A stretch of 64,000 bases of DNA. Source: the human T2T-CHM13v2.0 reference genome, Homo sapiens. Positions 24,972 through 35,584 of the stretch are shown here, in pieces. A model generated the notes under the pieces. The model did no database searches. It was not told the DNA's origin and worked only from the letters and a program-made list of their open reading frames with translations. Position numbers and translations under genes: made by a program. Positions within the stretch are counted from its first letter, which is position 1; each line of letters begins with the position of its first letter. The stretch lies in assembly GCF_009914755.1 (NCBI RefSeq), contig NC_060939.1; one strand, given 5' to 3'.

Positions 24972-25084
24972 TAAGGCACAGACCTTACTCTCTATTGGCA
25001 TTAAGTCTGATCGTGGATGAAATTAAAACACTTGAAACCATTTATATATAATGACGCAAGCCCCTCCAAAACTGTCAGGTCATA

Positions 25085-25490
25085 GAATGGATGTATCAGT
25101 TTGCTTTACCATTCACCTATTGGGGAGTATTTGGTTGTTTCCAGTTTGGGGCTATTACAAATAAATCTGCCATGAACAATCATGTATGAGTTTTTGTGCA
25201 GACATCAGTTTTATTTTCTGGTACAAATGCCCAGAAGCAATTGCTAGGTCATATATTGAGGTGTATGTTTAATTAAAGAAGCTGCCAAACTATTTTCTAG
25301 AGTGTCTGTATCATTTTATATTCCCACCAGCGATGTATGAGTTAGTTTTGTCTGCATCCTCGCCATTATTTGATACTATCACTATGCTTGATTTGAGCTG
25401 TTCTAATAGATCTGTAGTGATATCTTACTGTGGTTTTAATTTGCATTTCCCCAGTGGTTAGTGTTGAAGATCTATTCCTGTGCTTTAAGT
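25085..25490 (-). mobile_element. Old L1 3' fragment
   Basis: GGTTGTTTCCAGTTTGGGGCTATTACAAATAA...TTTAATTTGCATTTCCC, typical reverse L1M. Confidence 0.7.
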
Positions 25491-25539
25491 CAACTCATTT
25501 TTAAAACCTAAATAAATGTATTTAAAAAGGAAACTTTTG

Positions 25540-25805
25540 CTTTAGGAGGCCAAGGCAGGTGAATTGCTCAAGCCGAGGAGTTCACGACCAGCCTGAGCAA
25601 CATGGTGAAGCTCCATCTCTACAAAAAATACAAAAACATCCAGGCAAGGTAGCGTGCACCTATGGTTTCAGCTACTTGGGAAGTGAGGCAGGAGGATTGC
25701 TTGAGCCTGGGAGGTCGAGGCTGCCATGAGCCATGATTGCAGGATTGCACCATTATACTACAGCCTGGGTGTCACGGCAAAACCCTGCCTGAAATAAATG
25801 AATAA
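25540..25805 (+). mobile_element. 5'-truncated AluJ
   Basis: Degenerate Alu dimer. Confidence 0.8.
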
Positions 25806-25820
25806 AAGGAAACTTGTGGT

Positions 25821-25985
25821 TAGTGGTTCTCAGAGTGTGGTCCCTGAGCCAGCAGCATCAGCATCCCCATCAGCTGAGAACTTGTTAGAAATGCAGATTC
25901 TCAGGCGCCACCCCAGACCTCCTGAATCAGAACCTCTGAGGCGTGGGTTCAGCGACCTGTGGTTTAACAAGCCCTCCCGGTGAGA
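25821..25985. mobile_element. MER5A hAT DNA transposon fragment
   Basis: AGTGGTTCTCAGAGTGTGGTCCC...GAACTTGTTAGAAATGCAGATTCTCAGG...TTTAACAAGCCCTCC. Confidence 0.75.
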
Positions 25986-27080
25986 ATCAGTCTCATTCAC
26001 TACAGATAGAAGGAAATGGTAAAAATCAATTCATCCGCATATCGCCTAAAATCCTCCTGTGGGCCCCAGGTTGCCACAGCACACTTTTGGGCAGGAGCCC
26101 CACTCACAGAGGCCGTGACAAGAATGCTCCTGCCCCTGGGGTTGTGCAGTGACAGCTCACACAGCTCCACGTGGCGGTTCTGAGTTTGGGAAGCGCTGAT
26201 GTAGTCCTACTGCAGCCCTTCCTGCCCTTCACCGGACTGAGGAAATCCAGGCTCTGAGGAGGGCGAGACTTGCCCAAGGTCACCCAGCAACATGGTCAGT
26301 CTCCTTTCCCAGGGCCCTCACAATGCGTGGCCTGTTTAAAGCCTGCCTCTATTCACTGCTGAGTGAAAAATCCAGCTCCAAAACAGAATATGGGGAAGGA
26401 TACTATCTTGTGCAGCTTATGTTTATAGCTGCAGATACATGGGAAAACAAGTCAGAAAATACTGTTGAAGCAGTTATTTGGGGAGAGAAGGGGTTTGCTG
26501 GTTTTTTGTGTTTTTAACTTTTCTATATCTCATAATTTTTATCACAATAATGTTTAGTTACATAATCAAAATGTATTAAATATAATATTAAAAATCGACA
26601 TGAAGCCTGATCTAGCCACGGTCTATTGTTGGCAGAGTCAGGAAGCCTTCCAGATAGAGCAGGCCCTGCACCTGCCCCAGGTCACACCCTTACCCCATGG
26701 TGGCCTCCACATCCATACCCATGAGCATCTCCTGTGGGTGAGGCCCTCCCCTGCATCCAGCCCTGGGCACCCCCAGCCCAGAGGGCACCTCATGGTCTGA
26801 GAGTCCACCTGTCTGTCTCTAAAGAGAGGAAAGCTCCTTGGGACATGTGTTCTGCTTGACGCATCACCCCTGGCCTGGTACAGAAAGGTGGACAGTGGGT
26901 ATTTGGTGAATAAATGAATGAATGATTAGAACAAGTCCCCAAAATGGTGATTTCCTGAGGCCCTTCTCCAGCTTGCCTAGGTGGAACCAGTTCCACTTTT
27001 CACAGGAAAGCCAGGTGTGAGGAGTGGGGCAGGTATGTGTGAATGGCCAGGTTCTCGAAGGCTGGATGGATACAGGGCTT

Positions 27081-28825
27081 ATGGCAGGTCTGGGGTTGGC
27101 AGTGCTGCTGTGGGAGCCTGTAGGAGGGCTCGTCTTTGGAATCCCCCAGGGTATCCTGGTGCCCTCAGCTGCTGCATGGTGTGAGAAGGCCTGGCTTGTG
27201 GGGATGCACAGGGTCTTGTTTGGATTGGCCACCTGGTCCAGCCCAGGGAGCTATGCTTCCTGCCCCTCAGGGAAAACTCACTTTTGATGTGTAACAACAG
27301 CTGCAGGCAAGGGGAGGTAGAGGTGTGCTGGGCCTCGGCCTTAGAAGCCAGAAGCCAGTTCATGCCCCTACGTGGGAAAAGGATGATATACGTGGGAAAG
27401 GGATGGGGCCTTGGCTAGCTCTAGGGTCCTGGGTTATGGTCAGAACCATATGGACTTATATGAGTCACTTATGGACTCAGTGACTTGGGCTGACCCAGCC
27501 CCTCCCTGAACCTCATCAGTGAAACCAGGACGGGGCCAGGGCTCTCGACGCCTCCCAGCTCCAACCTCTGGCTTTCTCCCAGGAGGGCAGGAGATCAGAC
27601 AGAGGTAACCTGGGCTCCCCTGTTTACGTCAACCTCCTTGTGAAGCCTCCCTCTTTCTGCCTGTGAGGTGGGTGGGGCCAGAAGGAGAGGCATTCACCTG
27701 TGGGTCTCTGACTTCTCTGCCCAGGTGTGCCTGGAGAGCCTGGTCTATACCCGGTGCTTTGCTACACCCCACAGCCTGGCCAAAGCCTCCCTGCCTCCAG
27801 AGCAGCCCTGGCCCTGGGAAGAAGCTGGTCTCTGCATTGAATGACAGGTAGAAAATTAAAGTGGGGATGATAGCTCTGGAAAGGAGTCAAGGAGGAGTTG
27901 CCTTCCCAAGGACACAGAGGGTTTTTCCAGAATGGAACTTGACTGGTGTGGGCAAACATCAGGAGGTGGGAAGGGTGGCTCCCTCTGCGGGAGCTGGGGC
28001 AACTTGCCTGGGCCAAATGGTGGTAGGTTGTGGGTAGGGCAGGCAGAGCTGGGGTGCTCAGAGCCTGGGTTCTCTGTCCTTGCAGAGGACTGGAATTCAA
28101 AACAAGTGTCCCCTGCCCTGTGGCTGGGGGACATCCTCTACTTCCAAGCCCAGACATACACCAGCTGCCACAAGCCCCTGAGGCTCTTTAGAGGACCAAT
28201 GGACAGCCACACCCACAATGGGCCAGCCTGCTGGGCCACCTGCACCCTGGTCAGAGCCCATGACTGAGGGGACTCTCTGGGGACAATGGGGGCAGTCCCA
28301 TGCTGCCCTCTTACAGGTGGATCAGTCCCTGGGATCTGGTGTTGGGCTAGGGTGGGCTGAGGCTGTTCTCTGCCAGGGTGCCTGGTGGACAGCAGGTAGA
28401 GCAACTTGTCCTTGGCTTTCCTGGACCCCAGGACACAGCTGAACACTGCACTTTACCCTGGATGTCTTCAGATTCTCAGGGGACCCTGGGAAGGAAGAGG
28501 GGGATGCCCCAGCAGGAGGCCAGGGCCCTGGGCTATGCTTGCTCCCCCCAGTCCCTCCAGCAGGCACCTCCTCTCCACATCAACATCACCTGATTCCTGA
28601 AGGCCTGGGCTACTGACAAGAGCCCCAAAACCCTCACCAAGGCCTGTTCTTGTATCAGAGCAACTAGTACGAGTTCGGAGCTGAAGGGGGCGGAGAGAAA
28701 ACTCAGGGCTCTGTAAGAGTTCTCAGCTCCCTACTGTGGTGGGCCCCGTAGAAGTCCCCCCAGAAATCTGCAGCTGCTGTAAGTCACTGGGAGGAAGCTA
28801 CAGCAGACATGTGTTTCCCAGCCTG
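27081..28825 (+). pseudogene. Unprocessed zona pellucida ZP3-family pseudogene; exons about 27081-27306, 27605-27667, 27725-27847, 28086-28263, 28377-28493, 28579-28670, 28739-28825
   Basis: Collinear peptides match ZP3 exons 1-7: WCEKAWLVGMHRVLFG-IGHLVQPREL; KKLV..SLH*MTE; EDWNSKQVSPALWLGDILYFQAQTYTSCHKPLRLF-EDQWTATPT; CLVDSR*SNLSLAFLDPR..LHFTLDVFRFSGD; INIT*FLKAWATDKSPKTLTKACS; PVEVPPEICSCCK. Many stops, indels and broken splice sites. Confidence 0.88.
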
Positions 28826-29414
28826 GTAGATGCAGAGGGGTGTCCGGGCCCCGAGTGGGAGGCCCAAACACAGCCTTGGATATGGCAGTGCAGGATTCTA
28901 GACAGCTCTGGGGCCCTGGGCAAGTCATTTAGCCTCTCAGAACCCCATTCCTGGTCATCATGGGGCTCTTGTGTGGATGTAAAGAACCCCCCTGGCCACT
29001 TATGTCCCATCAGTGGAAGCCTAGCATGGGTGGAGACCCCTGAGACTGAACTCAGTGGTGGGATCCAGCCTGCCCAGCTCTCCTACATAGAGCCCAGAGC
29101 CAGGAGGATGGGCTTCCTGGAGAAGCAGGCACTCCTGTGGGCTGGAGAGCATGAGCAGGGGTCCCCTTGGGGAGGTGGAAGAGGCTGCGGTCAGTGAAGG
29201 CCATAATGAGGCAGAGCTTGGGCAAAAAAGGCATGATGATCAGGGGATCTGAAACCCAACAGAGACTGGACTGAGGACACTGTGGCCACCTCCTCCAGGT
29301 GTCGCTCAGGAGGTGGAAGCTGAGCTAGGGCTGGGCCCTTGTCCTGAGTAACGCCTCACCAGTCTTGGAAGCTATACCCAAGGTGGCTTCATGTAAGGGT
29401 GCATCTGCGCACTC

Positions 29415-29570
29415 TTTTTGAGATGGGGTCTTCCTCTGTCATTCAGGCTGCAATTCAGTGGCACAATCATAGCTCACTGCAGCCTCAAACTCCTGGGCTC
29501 AAGTGATCCTCCCACCTCAGCCTCACAAAGTATTATAATTATAGGCCTGAGCTATGGAGCCTGGTTTAAA
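29415..29570 (-). mobile_element. Alu monomer (FLAM-like)
   Basis: Single reverse Alu arm. Confidence 0.75.
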
Positions 29571-30713
29571 ATCTTAATAAATATCTCCTCCTGGTCTGCT
29601 TCCCTGGCTGACACACATGCTGGCATCTTGCGCCTAGACAGACATGTCTCTGGACTTGGTTCCATTTGTTCTGTCGGGCTCCTCTCTCTCAATGACCGCA
29701 CATTACAGTATGTGGCTATTCTTACACATTTCTGTATAGAACTGAGGGTTAGTATATTAACGTCAAAGTTCTACTGGTTTTTCGAGGCTGGGTGGAAAGT
29801 TTGGGTTAATTTAGGAGTGGGCATCTTGACAATATAGGCTTTTCTTCCAGGAACGGTGATTCTGGGACGCAGGTTTTGCACATTCTGGTTTATTGCTTGA
29901 CTCGCTGCCACAGAGGGATGTCACTGCTCCACACGCCATGCCCAAGAGATGTCCCACCTTATCTTTCTAAATCAAGCTGAATGTTTTCAGCTGACAGGAT
30001 ATCACGAGTGCTGCGGGGACTCACTCCCCTCAACCCGAGATGAAGTGAGGCGGAGACTATGGAGCAGATCCGTGCTGAGTGCATTTGCCCTTCCTGACCT
30101 GCACTGCTGCTGGCTGGGGCTGTGTCTGAGCTGTCAGAGGGCATTGATTTGGGGATGGGGTGGGGGGCAGTGCTGGAGAGATGCCCCTCACCTTCCTCAG
30201 CTCCTCCTGTCCAGCCGACACTTGGCCACCAAGGCCCCTGACTTCCAGGCCCCAGTCACCACTAACAGGGTGCTGCATGGGAACAAAGTGTAGCCCCAGA
30301 ACCTGGAGTTCAGGTCACTCCTCCTTCCAGTCGAAGCCTCTGCCCCTCCCAGGTGATTCCAGCCTCGTTCCTCCATGGGCCAAATATCCTAAACAAAGGC
30401 CTGGACAGGGGGTCTTTATCTGACTGCCCAGAAAACACACACAGAAAGGCTCTGCATGCCCTCTGTGGCCTGCCAGGGGTAAGAGCCTGCCCGTCAAAAT
30501 GCACAGTCCTGGTTCTTGCAGGGAGTTGAGGAGCAGAAGAAGAAACAAAGGTCCATCTCATTCTTTCAGCAGGAACCTAAACTTGGGAAAGCCAGACGCA
30601 GTACATTTCTTAATCCTGATACTTTTATAACTGGTTATAGCTGGGTCACATGCACAACTGTTTTCCAACATCTTTCAACAGGCCACATAACATCCTGTAA
30701 CTTCTTTTTTTAA

Positions 30714-31163
<450 letters not shown>

Positions 31164-31243
31164 TAGACTGCCATTGGCAAATGCCAGTTGATTATCCACC
31201 CACATGTATGTTAATGGATTTCCCATGTTTTATTTGTCTAGAC

Positions 31244-31451
31244 CAGGCTTTCTCCACAGCAGCACTGTTGATGTTTAGGGCTGGACAGTTCTCTGTTCTG
31301 GAGCTGTTTGCGCCTCGCAGGATGTTTAGCAGCATCCCCAGCCTCCGCCTGCCACATGCCAGCAGCACTCCTCAGTGTGACAGCCAAAGTGATTTCAGAT
31401 ACTGTCAAATATCCCCAGGGCGGCAAAATCACCTCCAGTTGAGAACTGCTG
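31244..31451. mobile_element. MER20 DNA transposon
   Basis: GCAGGATGTTTAGCAGCATCCCC...GGCAAAATCACCTCCAGTTGAGAACTGCTG. Confidence 0.75.
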
Positions 31452-31584
31452 ACCTAAAACCCTCTGGAACAATGTTAGATCATGGTAACGATAGCGCATA
31501 CTGCTCCTGACCTTAATGGGAATACCTCTAGCATCAAAGTATAGTAGTACCTGTATACTACTGTCTGGGCTGTTATTAGTACAC

Positions 31585-32807
<1,223 letters not shown>

Positions 32808-33311
32808 TTAACATATATACATATTCTCCAGTATATTCATAACATATTCTCTAGTATATTTCCCTATATTTGTGGTTTTCAAAGCATAGTCTCAAATTGG
32901 AAGTATCAGCGTCACCTGGGAACATAGACATGCAATGCTCAGGCCCCACCTCAGTCCTATTGAGTTAGAAACTCTGGTGTGGGGCCCAGCAGCCCGTTTC
33001 ACAAGCCCTGCAGGGGATTATGATGCACTCTAATGTATGAGAACCACGGCTCTAAATAGTCAAATCATCTTTAATTGTAAAACAAGTATCTGTGAAATAA
33101 TGCTCCAGTATGACATTAAAATGCTCCAGCACGCCACCCACTTTATTTCTGAATTTAAATACTTTGTCTGTCTGATGTTAAATTTGCTGTTTTTTTCAAA
33201 TACTCTTAAGACAGTTTTTCATCGGTTCTTAATTTTCTCTTTTTAAATAAAAAATGGTTTTCCAAATCTATCCATTTTTCTCTTCTTTAACCTATTGATA
33301 GGATGAAATAA

Positions 33312-33935
<624 letters not shown>

Positions 33936-34208
33936 ATGTTCTTAAAATTTTTCTTTGACATGGTATAGGATAGTCTAGTAACTTAACATACTGTTGTTTT
34001 CAACAGGCTAGTGCTTATGATTTGTAAAAGAACTCTTCAGAAATGAGTTCAATTTTACCATGAATTGGGACATTTTCCATTTCTTTCTATTCCATAGAGC
34101 AGTTTACTTGTCATGAGCTCTGTCTTTTGAAAACCTGAAAGCCTGCAATAAAACCAGCTGCACCTGGTGCATGGGATAGGCATGGAATTGAGGAGAGAGC
34201 TCAAACTA

Positions 34209-34501
34209 CGGTCAGCCCTCTGTATCCTCGGGTTCTGGATCCTTGGATTTGACCAACTGTGCATCAAAAATATTTGGAAAAAGTAAAATAAAAAAACAAA
34301 TTTAAAAATACTTCATACAGCTATTTACAAAGCATTTACGTTGTATTAAGTATTATAGTAATCTAGAGGTGATTTAAAGTCTACGGAAGGATGTGCATAG
34401 GTTATATGCAAATACTATGCCATATTATATCAGAGCATCTGTGAATTTTGGTATCTCTGGGGTCCTGGAACCAATATCCTGAGGTTTCTAAGGGACAACT
34501 G
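34209..34501. mobile_element. MER2 (Tigger-family) element
   Basis: TA flanks; inverted ends CGGTCAGCCCTC / AAGGGACAACTG; internal GGATGTGCATAGGTTATATGCAAATACTA. Confidence 0.75.
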
Positions 34502-35119
34502 TATTCAATTTCTTCTCTGGTTATTAGTCTATTCTCTAATGTATTTTTGTTGTTGTTTTGTCTTTTTGTTTTTGCCTCTTCAAGTCAATGTCGGAAACTT
34601 AGTTGTTTTAGACAACCCATTAGCTCAGAGCTACCAGTAAGCAGACTACCACTGCAATCTAAGCAACGGATTTTTTCCCCCATCAGACTGGCAAAAAATA
34701 AGCATCTATTGATGTTGAAATTGTAGGGAGTTTTCCTGAGCATGTTAATTATGACAGCCCTTTTTGCTAGGCACCTACACAATTCATCAAAATGAAATAA
34801 AACACCCATGCACTTGAAGAAGTTATCTGGTTATTTCCTTATCTGGGTGCTGGTTATGTGAGGTCTACAGTTAATGAACACTTATTAAGCTTTATATTTC
34901 TAATAGGTACAATTTTCTGCATGTGTAGTAGATTTCAATAGTTTTTAAAATGTCTTTTGCCGCAGCCCGCAGCTGTGTATAATGCTATTCGCTTAACAGT
35001 GGAAAACATGACAATGACCTGAATCCCCCTGGCTCCCGGGATCCTACCCCCTTAAGTTAAACAAATGAAATAACTTCCACTGTCTTTCCTAATGCCTTAA
35101 TTCGGTCCTCAGTTAAACT

Positions 35120-35352
35120 GGCGGTGGGCGCTGCTTTTTTTCCAGGGAAGGATTCTGGAAGACATAGGAGGAGACGCCAGCATTTCGCCCTCCAGCACCC
35201 CCTGCGGGCTGCGGTCCGCTTCCGGCCTCACTCGAGCAGGCCCCGCCCTCCCAGAGGCCGTTTGTCCAAGTCACGTGATCGTCGAATCTGTTGACCTGGC
35301 GCCACCGGAAAAAGAAATTCCCGGGCCCTGGCTTCTTGGCCTGATGGTGAGG
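35120..35352 (+). promoter_or_regulatory. Duplicated housekeeping-type CpG promoter with an ATG-only first exon (COMMD4-like)
   Basis: ETS CTTCCGG at 35219, GC box at 35240, GTCACGTGA at 35270, CCGGAA at 35305, then GGCTTCTTGGCCTGATG|GTGAGG at 35344-35352. Resembles my recollection of the COMMD4 5' UTR; no exon 2 found downstream. Confidence 0.6.
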
Positions 35353-35584
35353 CACCAGAGGTGAAGCGAGGCATGGGCTGCTGGAGCGGGAATGAGGGGG
35401 CGACAGTGGCTCCGGAAACGGGGGGAGGGTGTCTTCACTGGCCTCTCCGCAAACACAGTGTGTGCGGGTGTGAGGGCTGCAGGTCTGGTAGAGAAGAGTC
35501 CACCGCCATCCCGCTCCTGAGACGGGGGCAGGAGTGGGGGGCAGGAGTGGGGGGCGGGTAAGACAGAGCAGGCCGGCCGGCTTG

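What the first reader, a model, noticed from the sequence alone, without database searches (positions are those of the whole stretch)
27081..28825. Fossil of an additional ZP3-type egg-coat gene in apparently intergenic DNA
Seen: seven ordered segments on + translate to a signal-peptide-like start (MAGLGLAVLLW), ZP-N and ZP-C motifs, and the ZP3-specific Cys cluster (PVE..EICSCC). Exon 28086-28263 is 178 nt and exon 28579-28670 is 92 nt, the sizes I recall for ZP3 exons 4 and 6, with matching phases. Two conserved Cys codons are mutated (TGG, TGA) and several splice sites are dead (GCAAGG, CTGAGG, CAC acceptor). Known: functional human ZP3 is on chromosome 7, and non-eutherian vertebrates have extra ZP3 paralogues. 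Inference: retained introns and deep divergence point to a lost ancestral paralogue, not a recent copy of ZP3. It could be the orthologue of the chicken ZP3 that I recall lying on GGA10, which is syntenic with human 15q.
Basis: partly seen in the sequence, partly recalled or inferred. Interest (0 to 1): 0.92.

Follow-up and report, generated by a model that had tools for sequence, protein, structure and literature searches.

The report
Dead ZP3-like egg-coat gene, six copies
The stretch is a real but long-dead, intron-containing remnant of a ZP3-type egg-coat gene that RefSeq does not annotate, and it is one of six copies that the 15q24 segmental duplications spread along human chromosome 15.

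Summary
Window 27180-28804 (+) holds collinear remnants of ZP3 exon 1 (part) and exons 4, 5, 6 and 7, far above chance. Exon 4 is 178 nt and exon 6 is 92 nt, as in human ZP3. Two conserved Cys codons read TGG and TGA. Exons 2 and 3 are not demonstrable, and the ATG at 27081 is private to this copy.

Five more copies lie on chr15 at 87-91% identity, inside the 15q24 segmental-duplication blocks. At least five lesions are shared by all six, so the gene was dead before it was copied. The likely source copy lies about 6 kb upstream of the real COMMD4. Chicken ZP3 and ZP3L1 share a chr10 interval with COMMD4 and NEIL1.

There is no nucleotide similarity to chr7 ZP3, so it is not a recent copy. Protein trees cannot place it. 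The best reading is a relic of a ZP3.1-type paralogue (ZP3-1a or -1b) that the literature already records as lost in placentals. I found no published or RefSeq record of the relic. Interest is moderate.

The parts
27075..27113 (+). Possible signal-peptide remnant (hydrophobic G-L-G-x-A-V-L-L-W stretch). The ATG at 27081 is private to this copy.
   Evidence: Per-exon aligner score 25 vs control max 21.0 (n=40), window copy only. 13/35 identity to tortoise ZP3 aa 2-35. ATG present in 1 of 6 copies. Marginal.
27180..27265 (+). Exon 1 remnant, first part of ZP-N (equivalent to gibbon ZP3 aa 46-75), with a 1-nt deletion near 27226.
   Evidence: Scores 41-56 in all six copies at the same place vs control max 32.4. 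14/30 identical to tortoise ZP3. The frameshift is shared 6/6.
27689..27848 (+). Possible remnant of the end of exon 1 (GIH.CGS, cf. GLHECGS) joined to exon 2 (..SLVY..). cag|GTG at 27726 and a GT donor after 27848.
   Evidence: As one block, 43 in 3 of 6 copies vs control max 38.5. Exon 2 alone is not above noise. Splice-like sites are conserved 6/6. Suggestive only.
28086..28263 (+). Exon 4 remnant (ZP-C), 178 nt as in human ZP3. Acceptor ttgcag is intact, donor is dead (CTGAGG). There is a 1-nt insertion at about 28190 with a later compensating shift, and the conserved Cys reads TGG.
   Evidence: HMM 27.1 bits. Aligner 65-92 in six copies vs control max 42.7. Whole-genome E = 0.011. Chicken ZP3 3nk3_A E = 0.0046. 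Size and phase. Lesions shared 6/6.
28377..28493 (+). Exon 5 remnant (GCLVD ... TLHFTLDVFRF). It has one extra codon (TAG in this copy) and a 2-nt frameshift near 28442.
   Evidence: Aligner 43-76 vs control max 33.3. 21/39 identical to tortoise ZP3. Extra codon 6/6, frameshift at the same place 5/6. TAG in 2/6.
28579..28670 (+). Exon 6 remnant, 92 nt as in human ZP3. TGA replaces the conserved Cys (I-T-stop-F-L-K). The acceptor reads CAC in this copy only.
   Evidence: Aligner 43-57 vs control max 33.9. HMM 11.4 bits. TGA 6/6. The other five copies read CAG.
28740..28825 (+). Exon 7 remnant with the ZP3-specific Cys cluster (W.PVE....ICSCC), with a 1-nt frameshift near 28744.
   Evidence: Aligner 51-65 vs control max 39.7. 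tblastx PVEVPPEICSCC vs PVEGPADICQCC. Frameshift seen in 5/6.
29316..29346 (+).
   Evidence: Scores 21-29 vs control max 27.1. Same place in 5 of 6 copies. Marginal.
25080..35583 (+). Duplicon: a collinear copy of chr15:73195542-73206375, the region upstream of and into the first 250 bp of COMMD4, at 88-94% identity. It carries the fossil.
   Evidence: megablast of the window vs the COMMD4 locus. Gene table.

Best explanation
This is a non-functional relic of a ZP3-type (ZP3.1-like) egg-coat glycoprotein gene. It keeps its own short introns and the ZP3 exon sizes and phases, so it descends from a genomic gene copy and not from an mRNA. It had already accumulated frameshifts, a stop and lost cysteines before the 15q24 segmental duplications copied about 10 kb of the COMMD4-upstream region to at least five other places on chr15. 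The window holds one of these secondary copies (block D). The source is most likely the copy about 6 kb upstream of the real COMMD4. That position matches where birds keep ZP3 and ZP3L1. I therefore read the relic as the remains of the ancestral amniote ZP3 locus, meaning one of the two ZP3-1 paralogues (1a or 1b) that the literature records as lost in placental mammals. The working human ZP3 on chr7 (ZP3-1c) would then be the relocated therian duplicate. SHOWN: homology, exon anatomy, lesions, six copies, adjacency to COMMD4, and absence of nucleotide similarity to chr7 ZP3. INFERRED: which copy is ancestral, orthology to sauropsid ZP3, the 1a/1b assignment, and the timing.
For: Homology and anatomy:. 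Exon 4 = 178 nt and exon 6 = 92 nt, as in human ZP3. Introns 4, 5 and 6 are about 113, 85 and 69 nt, against 390, 6074 and 133 nt in ZP3 (coordinates). Six copies at 87-91% BLAST identity. Substitution distances are 6.5-9.3%, except the 75.81/76.61 Mb pair at 0.2%. Lesions shared 6/6: 1-nt deletion in exon 1, 1-nt insertion in exon 4, Cys>TGG, extra codon in exon 5, Cys>TGA, and the dead donors GCAAGG and CTGAGG. The copy at chr15:73197493-73199820 lies upstream of intact COMMD4 (73206125, +) followed by NEIL1, MAN2C1 and SIN3A. The copies at 71.97 and 75.81 Mb lie beside COMMD4P2 and COMMD4P1. Window 25080-35583 is collinear with the COMMD4 upstream region. The 15q24 paper places COMMD4-PTPN9 between SD blocks C and D, which share about 27 kb of directly oriented sequence at >93% identity. 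Chicken ZP3 and ZP3L1 are listed in one chr10 interval with NEIL1, COMMD4, MAN2C1 and SIN3A. The bird clade I used is the chicken ZP3 lineage (kiwi vs 3nk3_A, E = 8e-146). The review states that eutherian ZP3 = ZP3-1c, that a therian duplication occurred, and that ZP3-1a and -1b were lost. The fossil keeps 31-36 of the 43-46 aligned columns that are invariant in 51 functional ZP3.1 proteins. It is 40-47% identical to each clade, while the clades are 65-70% identical to each other. No significant blastn hit to the ZP3 gene (best E = 0.18).
Against: Phylogeny gives no positive support. With only therian ZP3-1c and sauropsid ZP3 available there is no outgroup. AU tests do not reject fossil+Eutheria (lnL 3.98 lower, p 0.41) or even fossil+primates (lnL 1.63 lower, p 0.45). 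Clade-diagnostic columns are too few (2, 5 and 7) and split evenly. The fossil is marginally more similar to eutherian than to marsupial or sauropsid ZP3 (0.43-0.47 vs 0.40-0.46). No ZP3-1a, -1b or ZP3.2 sequence could be obtained: 323 of 443 hits were not listed. The chicken synteny rests on one unordered gene list covering an interval of unstated exact size. No non-human vertebrate genome could be examined, so the presence of the relic upstream of COMMD4 in other eutherians, and of an intact gene there in marsupials, monotremes or sauropsids, is untested. Pfam's ZP models do not score any piece.
Confidence: 0.68

Rival explanations
1. It is an old DNA-level duplicate of the therian or eutherian ZP3 itself (ZP3-1c, now on chr7). 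It landed near COMMD4 in a stem eutherian, then died and was later copied by the 15q24 duplications.
For: AU tests do not reject grouping with Eutheria or with primates. Identity to eutherian ZP3 is slightly the highest. Exon 4 shares some eutherian-like residues (W-N and S-P-x-F). Exon nucleotide identity of 59-63% is not far below what I would expect for a duplicate more than 100 My old with one neutral partner (my estimate).
Against: It would have to land, by coincidence, in the very interval where birds keep ZP3 and ZP3L1. The introns are 2-70 times shorter than those of human ZP3 and have no detectable similarity. The free tree keeps Theria together without the fossil (SH-aLRT 97). The N-terminal hydrophobic stretch resembles the tortoise signal peptide (13/35) more than that of human ZP3.
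Confidence: 0.12
2. It is a relic of the more distant ZP3.2 subfamily, the kind of pseudogene that Feng et al. 2018 reported in panda, cat and opossum.
For: Feng et al. report ZP3.2 pseudogenes or similar segments in several mammals (passages seen). An outgroup sequence would also attach on the branch between sauropsid and therian ZP3.1, which is where the fossil attaches.
Against: After long neutral decay the fossil still keeps about 75-80% of the columns invariant in ZP3.1 proteins and 40-47% identity to them. That implies an original identity near the 65-70% seen between ZP3.1 clades. My recollection, untested here, is that ZP3.2 is considerably more distant. It shares ZP3.1 motifs (GCLVD, TLxFTxDVFxF, IxITC, NKACS, PVEG...C.CC). 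The characterised chicken ZP3 in the syntenic interval belongs to ZP3.1 according to Feng et al..
Confidence: 0.12
3. It is a recent (primate-era) segmental copy or a processed pseudogene of chr7 ZP3, like POMZP3, ZP3P1 or ZP3P2.
For: chr15q24 is full of recent duplications. The AU test on protein columns cannot reject grouping with primates.
Against: No nucleotide similarity to the ZP3 gene (best blastn E = 0.18), and exon identity is only 59-63%. Introns are present, so it is not processed. By contrast, the true ZP3 retro-fragment on chr1 is 79% identical at protein level and runs across exon junctions. ZP3P1, ZP3P2 and POMZP3 score 40-130 bits per exon against 18-25 bits here. The founder of the six copies was already riddled with lesions when they split at 6.5-9.3% divergence.
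Confidence: 0.02
4. It is chance similarity, or the sequence still has a function of its own, as a coding gene or as an exapted regulatory element.
For: Pfam finds nothing. RefSeq places an 'H3K27ac-H3K4me1 hESC enhancer' feature at window 28106-28667, over exons 4-6, with similar marks on two other copies.
Against: Chance is excluded by the controls and by the genome-wide E = 0.011. A coding function is excluded by at least five lesions shared by six copies, plus private ones. The copies diverge at 6.5-9.3%, in a near-star pattern, with no sign of constraint. An enhancer mark in a catalogue does not show function.
Confidence: 0.04

Closest known systems
ZP3-1a and ZP3-1b (the ZP3-a and ZP3-b of marsupials, present in monotremes), stated to be lost in placental mammals (Moros-Nicolas et al. 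2021 review, PMC8005149)
   Same: They are ZP3.1-type genes distinct from the eutherian ZP3 (ZP3-1c). Their loss in placentals is exactly what a relic like this would document.
   Different: No 1a or 1b sequence or map position could be obtained here, so the assignment is inferred. The parts of the review I read (passages and section 2.2) name no relic in any placental.
ZPAXP, the human ZPAX pseudogene on chr2 (RefSeq; Goudet et al. 2008 as cited in PMC3434135 and PMC8005149)
   Same: It is a relic of an egg-coat ZP gene that is still functional in birds and amphibians and is dead in human. It documents the progressive loss of ZP genes.
   Different: ZPAXP is annotated, single-copy and from another subfamily. 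The chr15 relic is unannotated and exists in six copies.
ZP3.2 pseudogenes of panda, cat and opossum (Feng et al. 2018, PMC6262864)
   Same: They are tBLASTn-detected remains of a ZP3 paralogue in mammals that lack the gene.
   Different: The subfamily is probably different (see rivals). Human is not named in the main-text passages I saw, and the supplements were closed.
ZP3P1 (chr5), ZP3P2 (chr7), POMZP3 (chr7) and an unannotated fragment at chr1:237679867-237679992
   Same: They are ZP3-derived non-functional or chimeric sequences in the human genome.
   Different: These derive from the chr7 gene. They are close in sequence (40-130 bits per exon; 79% aa identity for the chr1 piece) and intron-less, or, for POMZP3, a partial recent genomic copy. 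The chr15 relic is far more diverged and keeps its own introns.
15q24 segmental-duplication blocks A-E (breakpoints of the 15q24 microdeletion syndrome; PMC3261729)
   Same: The six copies lie among GOLGA6, DNM1P and COMMD4P duplicons. COMMD4-PTPN9 lie between blocks C and D, which share a directly oriented stretch of about 27 kb at >93% identity, matching the window-to-COMMD4-locus alignment.
   Different: The paper does not mention ZP3-like content. Assigning the other copies to blocks A, B and E is my inference from their order along the chromosome.

Membership tests
ZP3 subfamily of egg-coat ZP-module genes | Significant sequence similarity to ZP3 proteins across the ZP-C part | tested here: met
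   Exons 4-7: HMM hits (27.1, 6.3, 11.4, 7.1 bits) collinear, with controls at or below 2.5 bits. Per-exon aligner scores exceed all 40 controls in six copies. Genome-wide E = 0.011.
ZP3 subfamily of egg-coat ZP-module genes | Match to Pfam Zona_pellucida models at the curated cut-off | tested here: not met
   0 families for the ZP3-like pieces at E <= 10. No chr15 hit for PF00100. The 133-position model hit only 1 exon of the real ZP3 in that scan.
ZP3 subfamily of egg-coat ZP-module genes | ZP-N part with its conserved cysteines | tested here: inconclusive
   The first part (C-E-x-A-x-L-V ... L-F-G-x-G) is significant in 6/6 copies. The GLHECG region and exons 2-3 are not above noise alone and only suggestive as a block.
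ZP3 subfamily of egg-coat ZP-module genes | ZP3-specific subdomain with the C-x-C-C cluster after P-V-E-G | tested here: met
   PVE(V/G)PPEICSCC at 28745-28780. Exon 7 scores 51-65 vs control max 39.7.
ZP3 subfamily of egg-coat ZP-module genes | ZP3 exon-intron structure (sizes and phases) | tested here: met
   Exon 4 is 178 nt and exon 6 is 92 nt, equal to human ZP3, and exon 4 enters in the same phase. Not testable for exons 2, 3 and 8.
ZP3 subfamily of egg-coat ZP-module genes | Furin-type cleavage site, external hydrophobic patch and C-terminal transmembrane segment (exons 7-8) | tested here: inconclusive
   Only a marginal EAELGLGP match at 29316-29346 (21-29 vs control max 27.1).
Unitary (lost-gene) pseudogene at an ancestral locus | Disabling mutations and no intact copy of this paralogue in the genome | tested here: met
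   At least 5 lesions shared by six copies. The genome scan with profile A1 finds no other deep ZP3-like locus besides ZP3 and its known derivatives.
Unitary (lost-gene) pseudogene at an ancestral locus | A functional orthologue at the syntenic position in other species | not testable with these tools
   No vertebrate genome other than human is reachable. The only evidence is one chicken gene list placing ZP3 and ZP3L1 with COMMD4 and NEIL1 on chr10.
Processed pseudogene of ZP3 | Intron-less, with contiguous exon junctions | tested here: not met
   Exon remnants are separated by 69-113 nt introns with recognisable splice-site remains. Contrast the chr1 fragment.
Recent duplicate of chr7 ZP3 (POMZP3-like) | Nucleotide similarity that includes the introns | tested here: not met
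   Best blastn E = 0.18 over 2.4 kb vs 25 kb. Exon identity 59-63%.
Segmental duplication (15q24 blocks) | Several copies longer than 1 kb at roughly 90% identity or more, within described SD blocks | tested here: met
   Six copies of about 2.3 kb at 87-91%. About 10.5 kb is collinear with the COMMD4 upstream region at 88-94%. Neighbours are GOLGA6, DNM1P and COMMD4P duplicons. Blocks C and D are as described in PMC3261729.

The most novel reading that the evidence does not exclude
The relic upstream of COMMD4 marks the original amniote ZP3 locus. On that reading the true positional orthologue of chicken and reptile ZP3 died in stem placentals. The ZP3 that all eutherians use for fertilisation (chr7, ZP3-1c) is a relocated therian duplicate. 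The corpse of the original was then amplified six-fold by the primate 15q24 duplications, so it now sits in every breakpoint block of the 15q24 microdeletion region.
Probability: 0.5. Interest if true: 0.55.

Novelty: new member of a known kind. Interest (0 to 1): 0.4.

Why it matters
The loss of egg-coat genes along the line to placental mammals is inferred mostly from presence and absence in gene sets. A physical relic gives that loss a locus, a set of datable lesions and a test of orthology. If the relic at COMMD4 is the positional orthologue of sauropsid ZP3, comparisons that treat chicken ZP3 (the crystal-structure model) and human ZP3 as simple orthologues would need a caveat. The shared lesions listed here could be traced across eutherian genomes to date the loss. 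The relic is also a compact, recognisable marker present in each of the 15q24 duplication blocks, useful for working out their order of origin. None of this changes what is known about human fertilisation, because the sequence itself is dead.

Tried and rejected
Pfam scan of six stop-free pieces and a PF00100 genome scan: no hit for the fossil. Uninformative, because the model catches only one exon of the real ZP3.

Protein word search with the exon-4 piece: blank, because the length filter admits only 61-194 aa proteins.

Phylogenetic placement. The careful IQ-TREE search did not finish in 288 s, so the quick tree was used (57 rows x 182 columns). Of the 124 stored proteins I used 51: 20 eutherians, all 9 marsupials and 22 sauropsids. 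These were all taken from the 106 proteins of 400-480 aa (75 eutherian, 9 marsupial, 22 sauropsid) and were chosen before any tree was seen. AU tests rejected nothing. The narrower constraint scored better than the broader one, which shows the quick constrained searches were not optimal. I treat both tests as powerless, not as support for anything. Counting clade-diagnostic columns gave only 2, 5, 7 and 2 usable columns, so no verdict.

The apparent exon 3 directly abutting exon 4 (27995-28075, 'WGN...W.V...GFS') adds nothing to the exon-4 score and is rejected as unsupported.

The 'intron identity' figures printed (0.84, 0.70) are artefacts of global alignment between sequences of unequal length and are not used.

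No second relic lies nearby: an HMM scan of both strands of the whole window and of 30 kb around COMMD4 found only the one fossil each, with noise up to 5.4 bits.

Literature searches for a prior report found none linking a ZP3 paralogue relic to 15q24 or human chr15. Goudet 2008 and Moros-Nicolas 2018 were not seen and are known to me only through papers that cite them. The supplements of Feng 2018 (Table S3, Fig. S7) were closed and may bear on novelty. GENCODE/Ensembl pseudogene tracks could not be consulted.

Dating is rough. The copy-to-copy distances (6.5-9.3% raw; ML paths 0.09-0.13) are, from my recollection of human-macaque and human-marmoset divergences, of the order of 25-50 My. The retention of about 78% of invariant residues suggests very roughly 50-150 My of neutral decay. 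Both are inferences with recalled calibrations.
Full report
WHAT IS THERE. Reading window 26800-29400 and comparing it with the human ZP3 gene fetched from chr7 shows translated matches on the + strand in ZP3 exon order. These are exon 4 (28079-28189; 18/37 aa), the start of exon 5 (GCLVD), the middle of exon 5 (TLHFTLDVFRFSGD vs TLQFTVDVFHFAND), exon 6 and exon 7 (PVEVPPEICSCC vs PVEGPADICQCC). The same exons are found with gibbon, possum, tortoise and kiwi ZP3. The exon-4 piece also matches the solved chicken ZP3 (3nk3_A, E = 0.0046).

A profile HMM built from 106 full-length ZP3 proteins gives four collinear forward hits. Nothing on the reverse strands of the six copies reaches 3 bits (0 of 160 hits, max 2.5), and 30 shuffles reach at most 1.4.

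A frameshift- and intron-aware profile-to-DNA aligner that I wrote scores the six copies at 250-328. Reverse complements score 113-121, 20 shuffles score 107.6 +/- 8.1 (max 125.1), and ten other stretches of the window score 84-125.

Exon by exon, against 40 controls each:
- Clearly real, at one place in all six copies: the first part of exon 1 (27180-27265) and exons 4, 5, 6 and 7.
- Marginal: the signal-peptide region and an exon-8 remnant at 29316-29346.
- Not above noise: the end of exon 1, exon 2 and exon 3. The end of exon 1 plus exon 2, taken as one block at 27689-27804, is only suggestive.

A six-frame scan of the whole genome with a stored ZP3 alignment lists the window's exon 4 at E = 0.011. 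Pfam sees nothing.

ANATOMY. Human ZP3 coding exons measure 312, 119, 104, 178, 118, 92 and 137 nt, then the last exon.
- The fossil's exon 4 (28086-28263) is 178 nt. It enters in the same phase after an intact ttgcag and ends at a dead CTGAGG donor.
- Exon 6 (28579-28670) is 92 nt.
- Introns 4-6 are about 113, 85 and 69 nt, far shorter than in human ZP3.

NOT UNIQUE. The 2.3-kb stretch has five more copies on chr15 at 87-91% identity. Their positions are 70.45, 71.97, 73.20, 75.81 and 76.61 Mb. They lie among GOLGA6, DNM1P and COMMD4P duplicons. RefSeq annotates no gene or pseudogene over any of them.

Substitution distances are 6.5-9.3%, except 0.2% between the 75.81 and 76.61 Mb copies. The DNA tree is nearly a star, with the window copy pairing with the 71.97 Mb copy (93/97).

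Lesions and sites:
- Shared by all six: a 1-nt deletion in exon 1, a 1-nt insertion after PLRLF in exon 4, TGG for the VDxCVAT cysteine, an extra codon in exon 5, TGA for the ITCHLK cysteine, and the GCAAGG and CTGAGG donors.
- Private to the window copy: the ATG at 27081 (made by a 1-nt insertion) and the CAC acceptor of exon 6 (the other five read CAG).
- In two of six copies: the TAG in exon 5.

The gene was therefore dead well before it was copied.

WHICH COPY CAME FIRST. The copy at chr15:73197493-73199820 lies about 6 kb upstream of the intact COMMD4, which is followed by NEIL1, MAN2C1 and SIN3A. The copies at 71.97 and 75.81 Mb lie beside COMMD4P2 and COMMD4P1. Window 25080-35583 is a collinear copy of chr15:73195542-73206375, ending 250 bp inside COMMD4. 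The 15q24 microdeletion literature places COMMD4-PTPN9 between duplication blocks C and D, which share about 27 kb of directly oriented sequence at >93% identity (passages seen). I infer that the COMMD4-adjacent copy is the source and that the window holds a block-D duplicate.

RELATION TO KNOWN ZP3 GENES. A sensitive blastn of the fossil against 25 kb of the ZP3 gene finds nothing better than E = 0.18. Exon nucleotide identity is 105/177 and 57/91. This excludes a recent copy. A true ZP3 retro-fragment that I came across on chr1 (79% identical, continuous across exon junctions) shows what such a copy looks like.

The literature supplies the frame:
- Feng et al. 2018 split ZP3 into ZP3.1, ZP3.2 and ZP3.3, and report ZP3.2 pseudogenes in panda, cat and opossum (passages).
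- Moros-Nicolas et al. 2021 state that marsupials have ZP3-1a, 1b and 1c, that eutherian ZP3 is 1c and arose by a therian duplication, and that ZP3-1a and 1b were lost (passages and section 2.2).
- A chicken GWAS table lists ZP3 and ZP3L1 with NEIL1, COMMD4, MAN2C1, SIN3A, ISLR2 and CSPG4 in one chr10 interval (one passage). The bird proteins I retrieved belong to the lineage of the crystallised chicken ZP3.

Position therefore argues that the relic sits at the ancestral amniote ZP3 locus.

WHAT THE SEQUENCES CANNOT SAY. I could retrieve only eutherian and marsupial ZP3-1c and sauropsid ZP3: 120 of 443 hits were listed, after a seeding search. The quick tree keeps Theria together without the fossil (SH-aLRT 97). 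However, AU tests reject neither fossil+Eutheria (p 0.41) nor fossil+primates (p 0.45), and diagnostic columns are too few.

The fossil is about equally distant from all three clades, at 40-47% identity. The clades are 65-70% identical to each other. The fossil keeps 31-36 of the 43-46 aligned columns that are invariant in 51 functional proteins. That fits a decayed ZP3.1-type gene but does not prove it.

VERDICT. This is a real, unannotated, multi-copy relic of a ZP3-type gene. This window, though, holds a secondary duplicate and not the ancestral locus. The loss itself is already in print, and the subfamily assignment remains open. It is a new member of a known kind, of moderate interest.

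Noticed in passing
G000 chr1:237679867-237679992 (-), locus L046: An unannotated, intron-less ZP3 fragment. It is 79% identical to gibbon ZP3 aa 276-309 and runs continuously across the exon 5/6 and 6/7 junctions, so it is a processed retrocopy fragment of the chr7 gene. No gene is annotated within 50 kb.
   Followed up: partly
window 28106-28667 (chr15:73622106-73622667); also chr15:75813872-75814372 and chr15:70445940-70446532: RefSeq 'hESC enhancer' features (H3K27ac-H3K4me1 or H3K4me1) overlap the fossil in 3 of 6 copies. In the window copy the feature covers exons 4-6. Whether this reflects real activity or multi-mapping in duplicated sequence is unknown.
   Followed up: no
window 34290-35583 and lncRNA LOC101929408 exon 1 (35116-35360): The duplicon ends about 250 bp inside a copy of the COMMD4 5' end. 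By approximate mapping, the first exon of the lncRNA coincides with the duplicated COMMD4 promoter and first exon, so the lncRNA appears to be driven by a copied COMMD4 promoter.
   Followed up: partly
chr15:75812851-75815091 (-) and chr15:76606570-76608812 (+), loci L038 and L039: These two copies differ by only 0.2% while all other pairs differ by 6.5-9.3%. They are in inverted orientation about 0.8 Mb apart. This points to a very recent duplication or gene conversion.
   Followed up: no
window 27072-27083, six-copy alignment: Three other copies carry an ATG at the position of window 27072-27074, where the window reads ACA. In the 73.20 Mb copy, which I checked by hand, that ATG is out of frame with the hydrophobic stretch. 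The window's own ATG at 27081 arises from a 1-nt insertion.
   Followed up: yes
proteins P0106/P0108, P0097/P0115, P0114/P0100: Turtles have two ZP3 forms of about 475 and about 434-444 aa on contigs of the same length (88% identical in Gopherus). They nearly coincide in the tree. They may be tandem duplicates or isoforms, reminiscent of chicken ZP3 and ZP3L1.
   Followed up: no
literature: Gene lists for the orthologous interval in pig and cattle papers (PMC10741191, PMC8306006, PMC8520274, PMC9602073) show 0 occurrences of ZP3 in the search listings, while the chicken list includes it. This fits the absence of an annotated ZP3 gene at this locus in eutherians. I saw the search listings only.
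   Followed up: no
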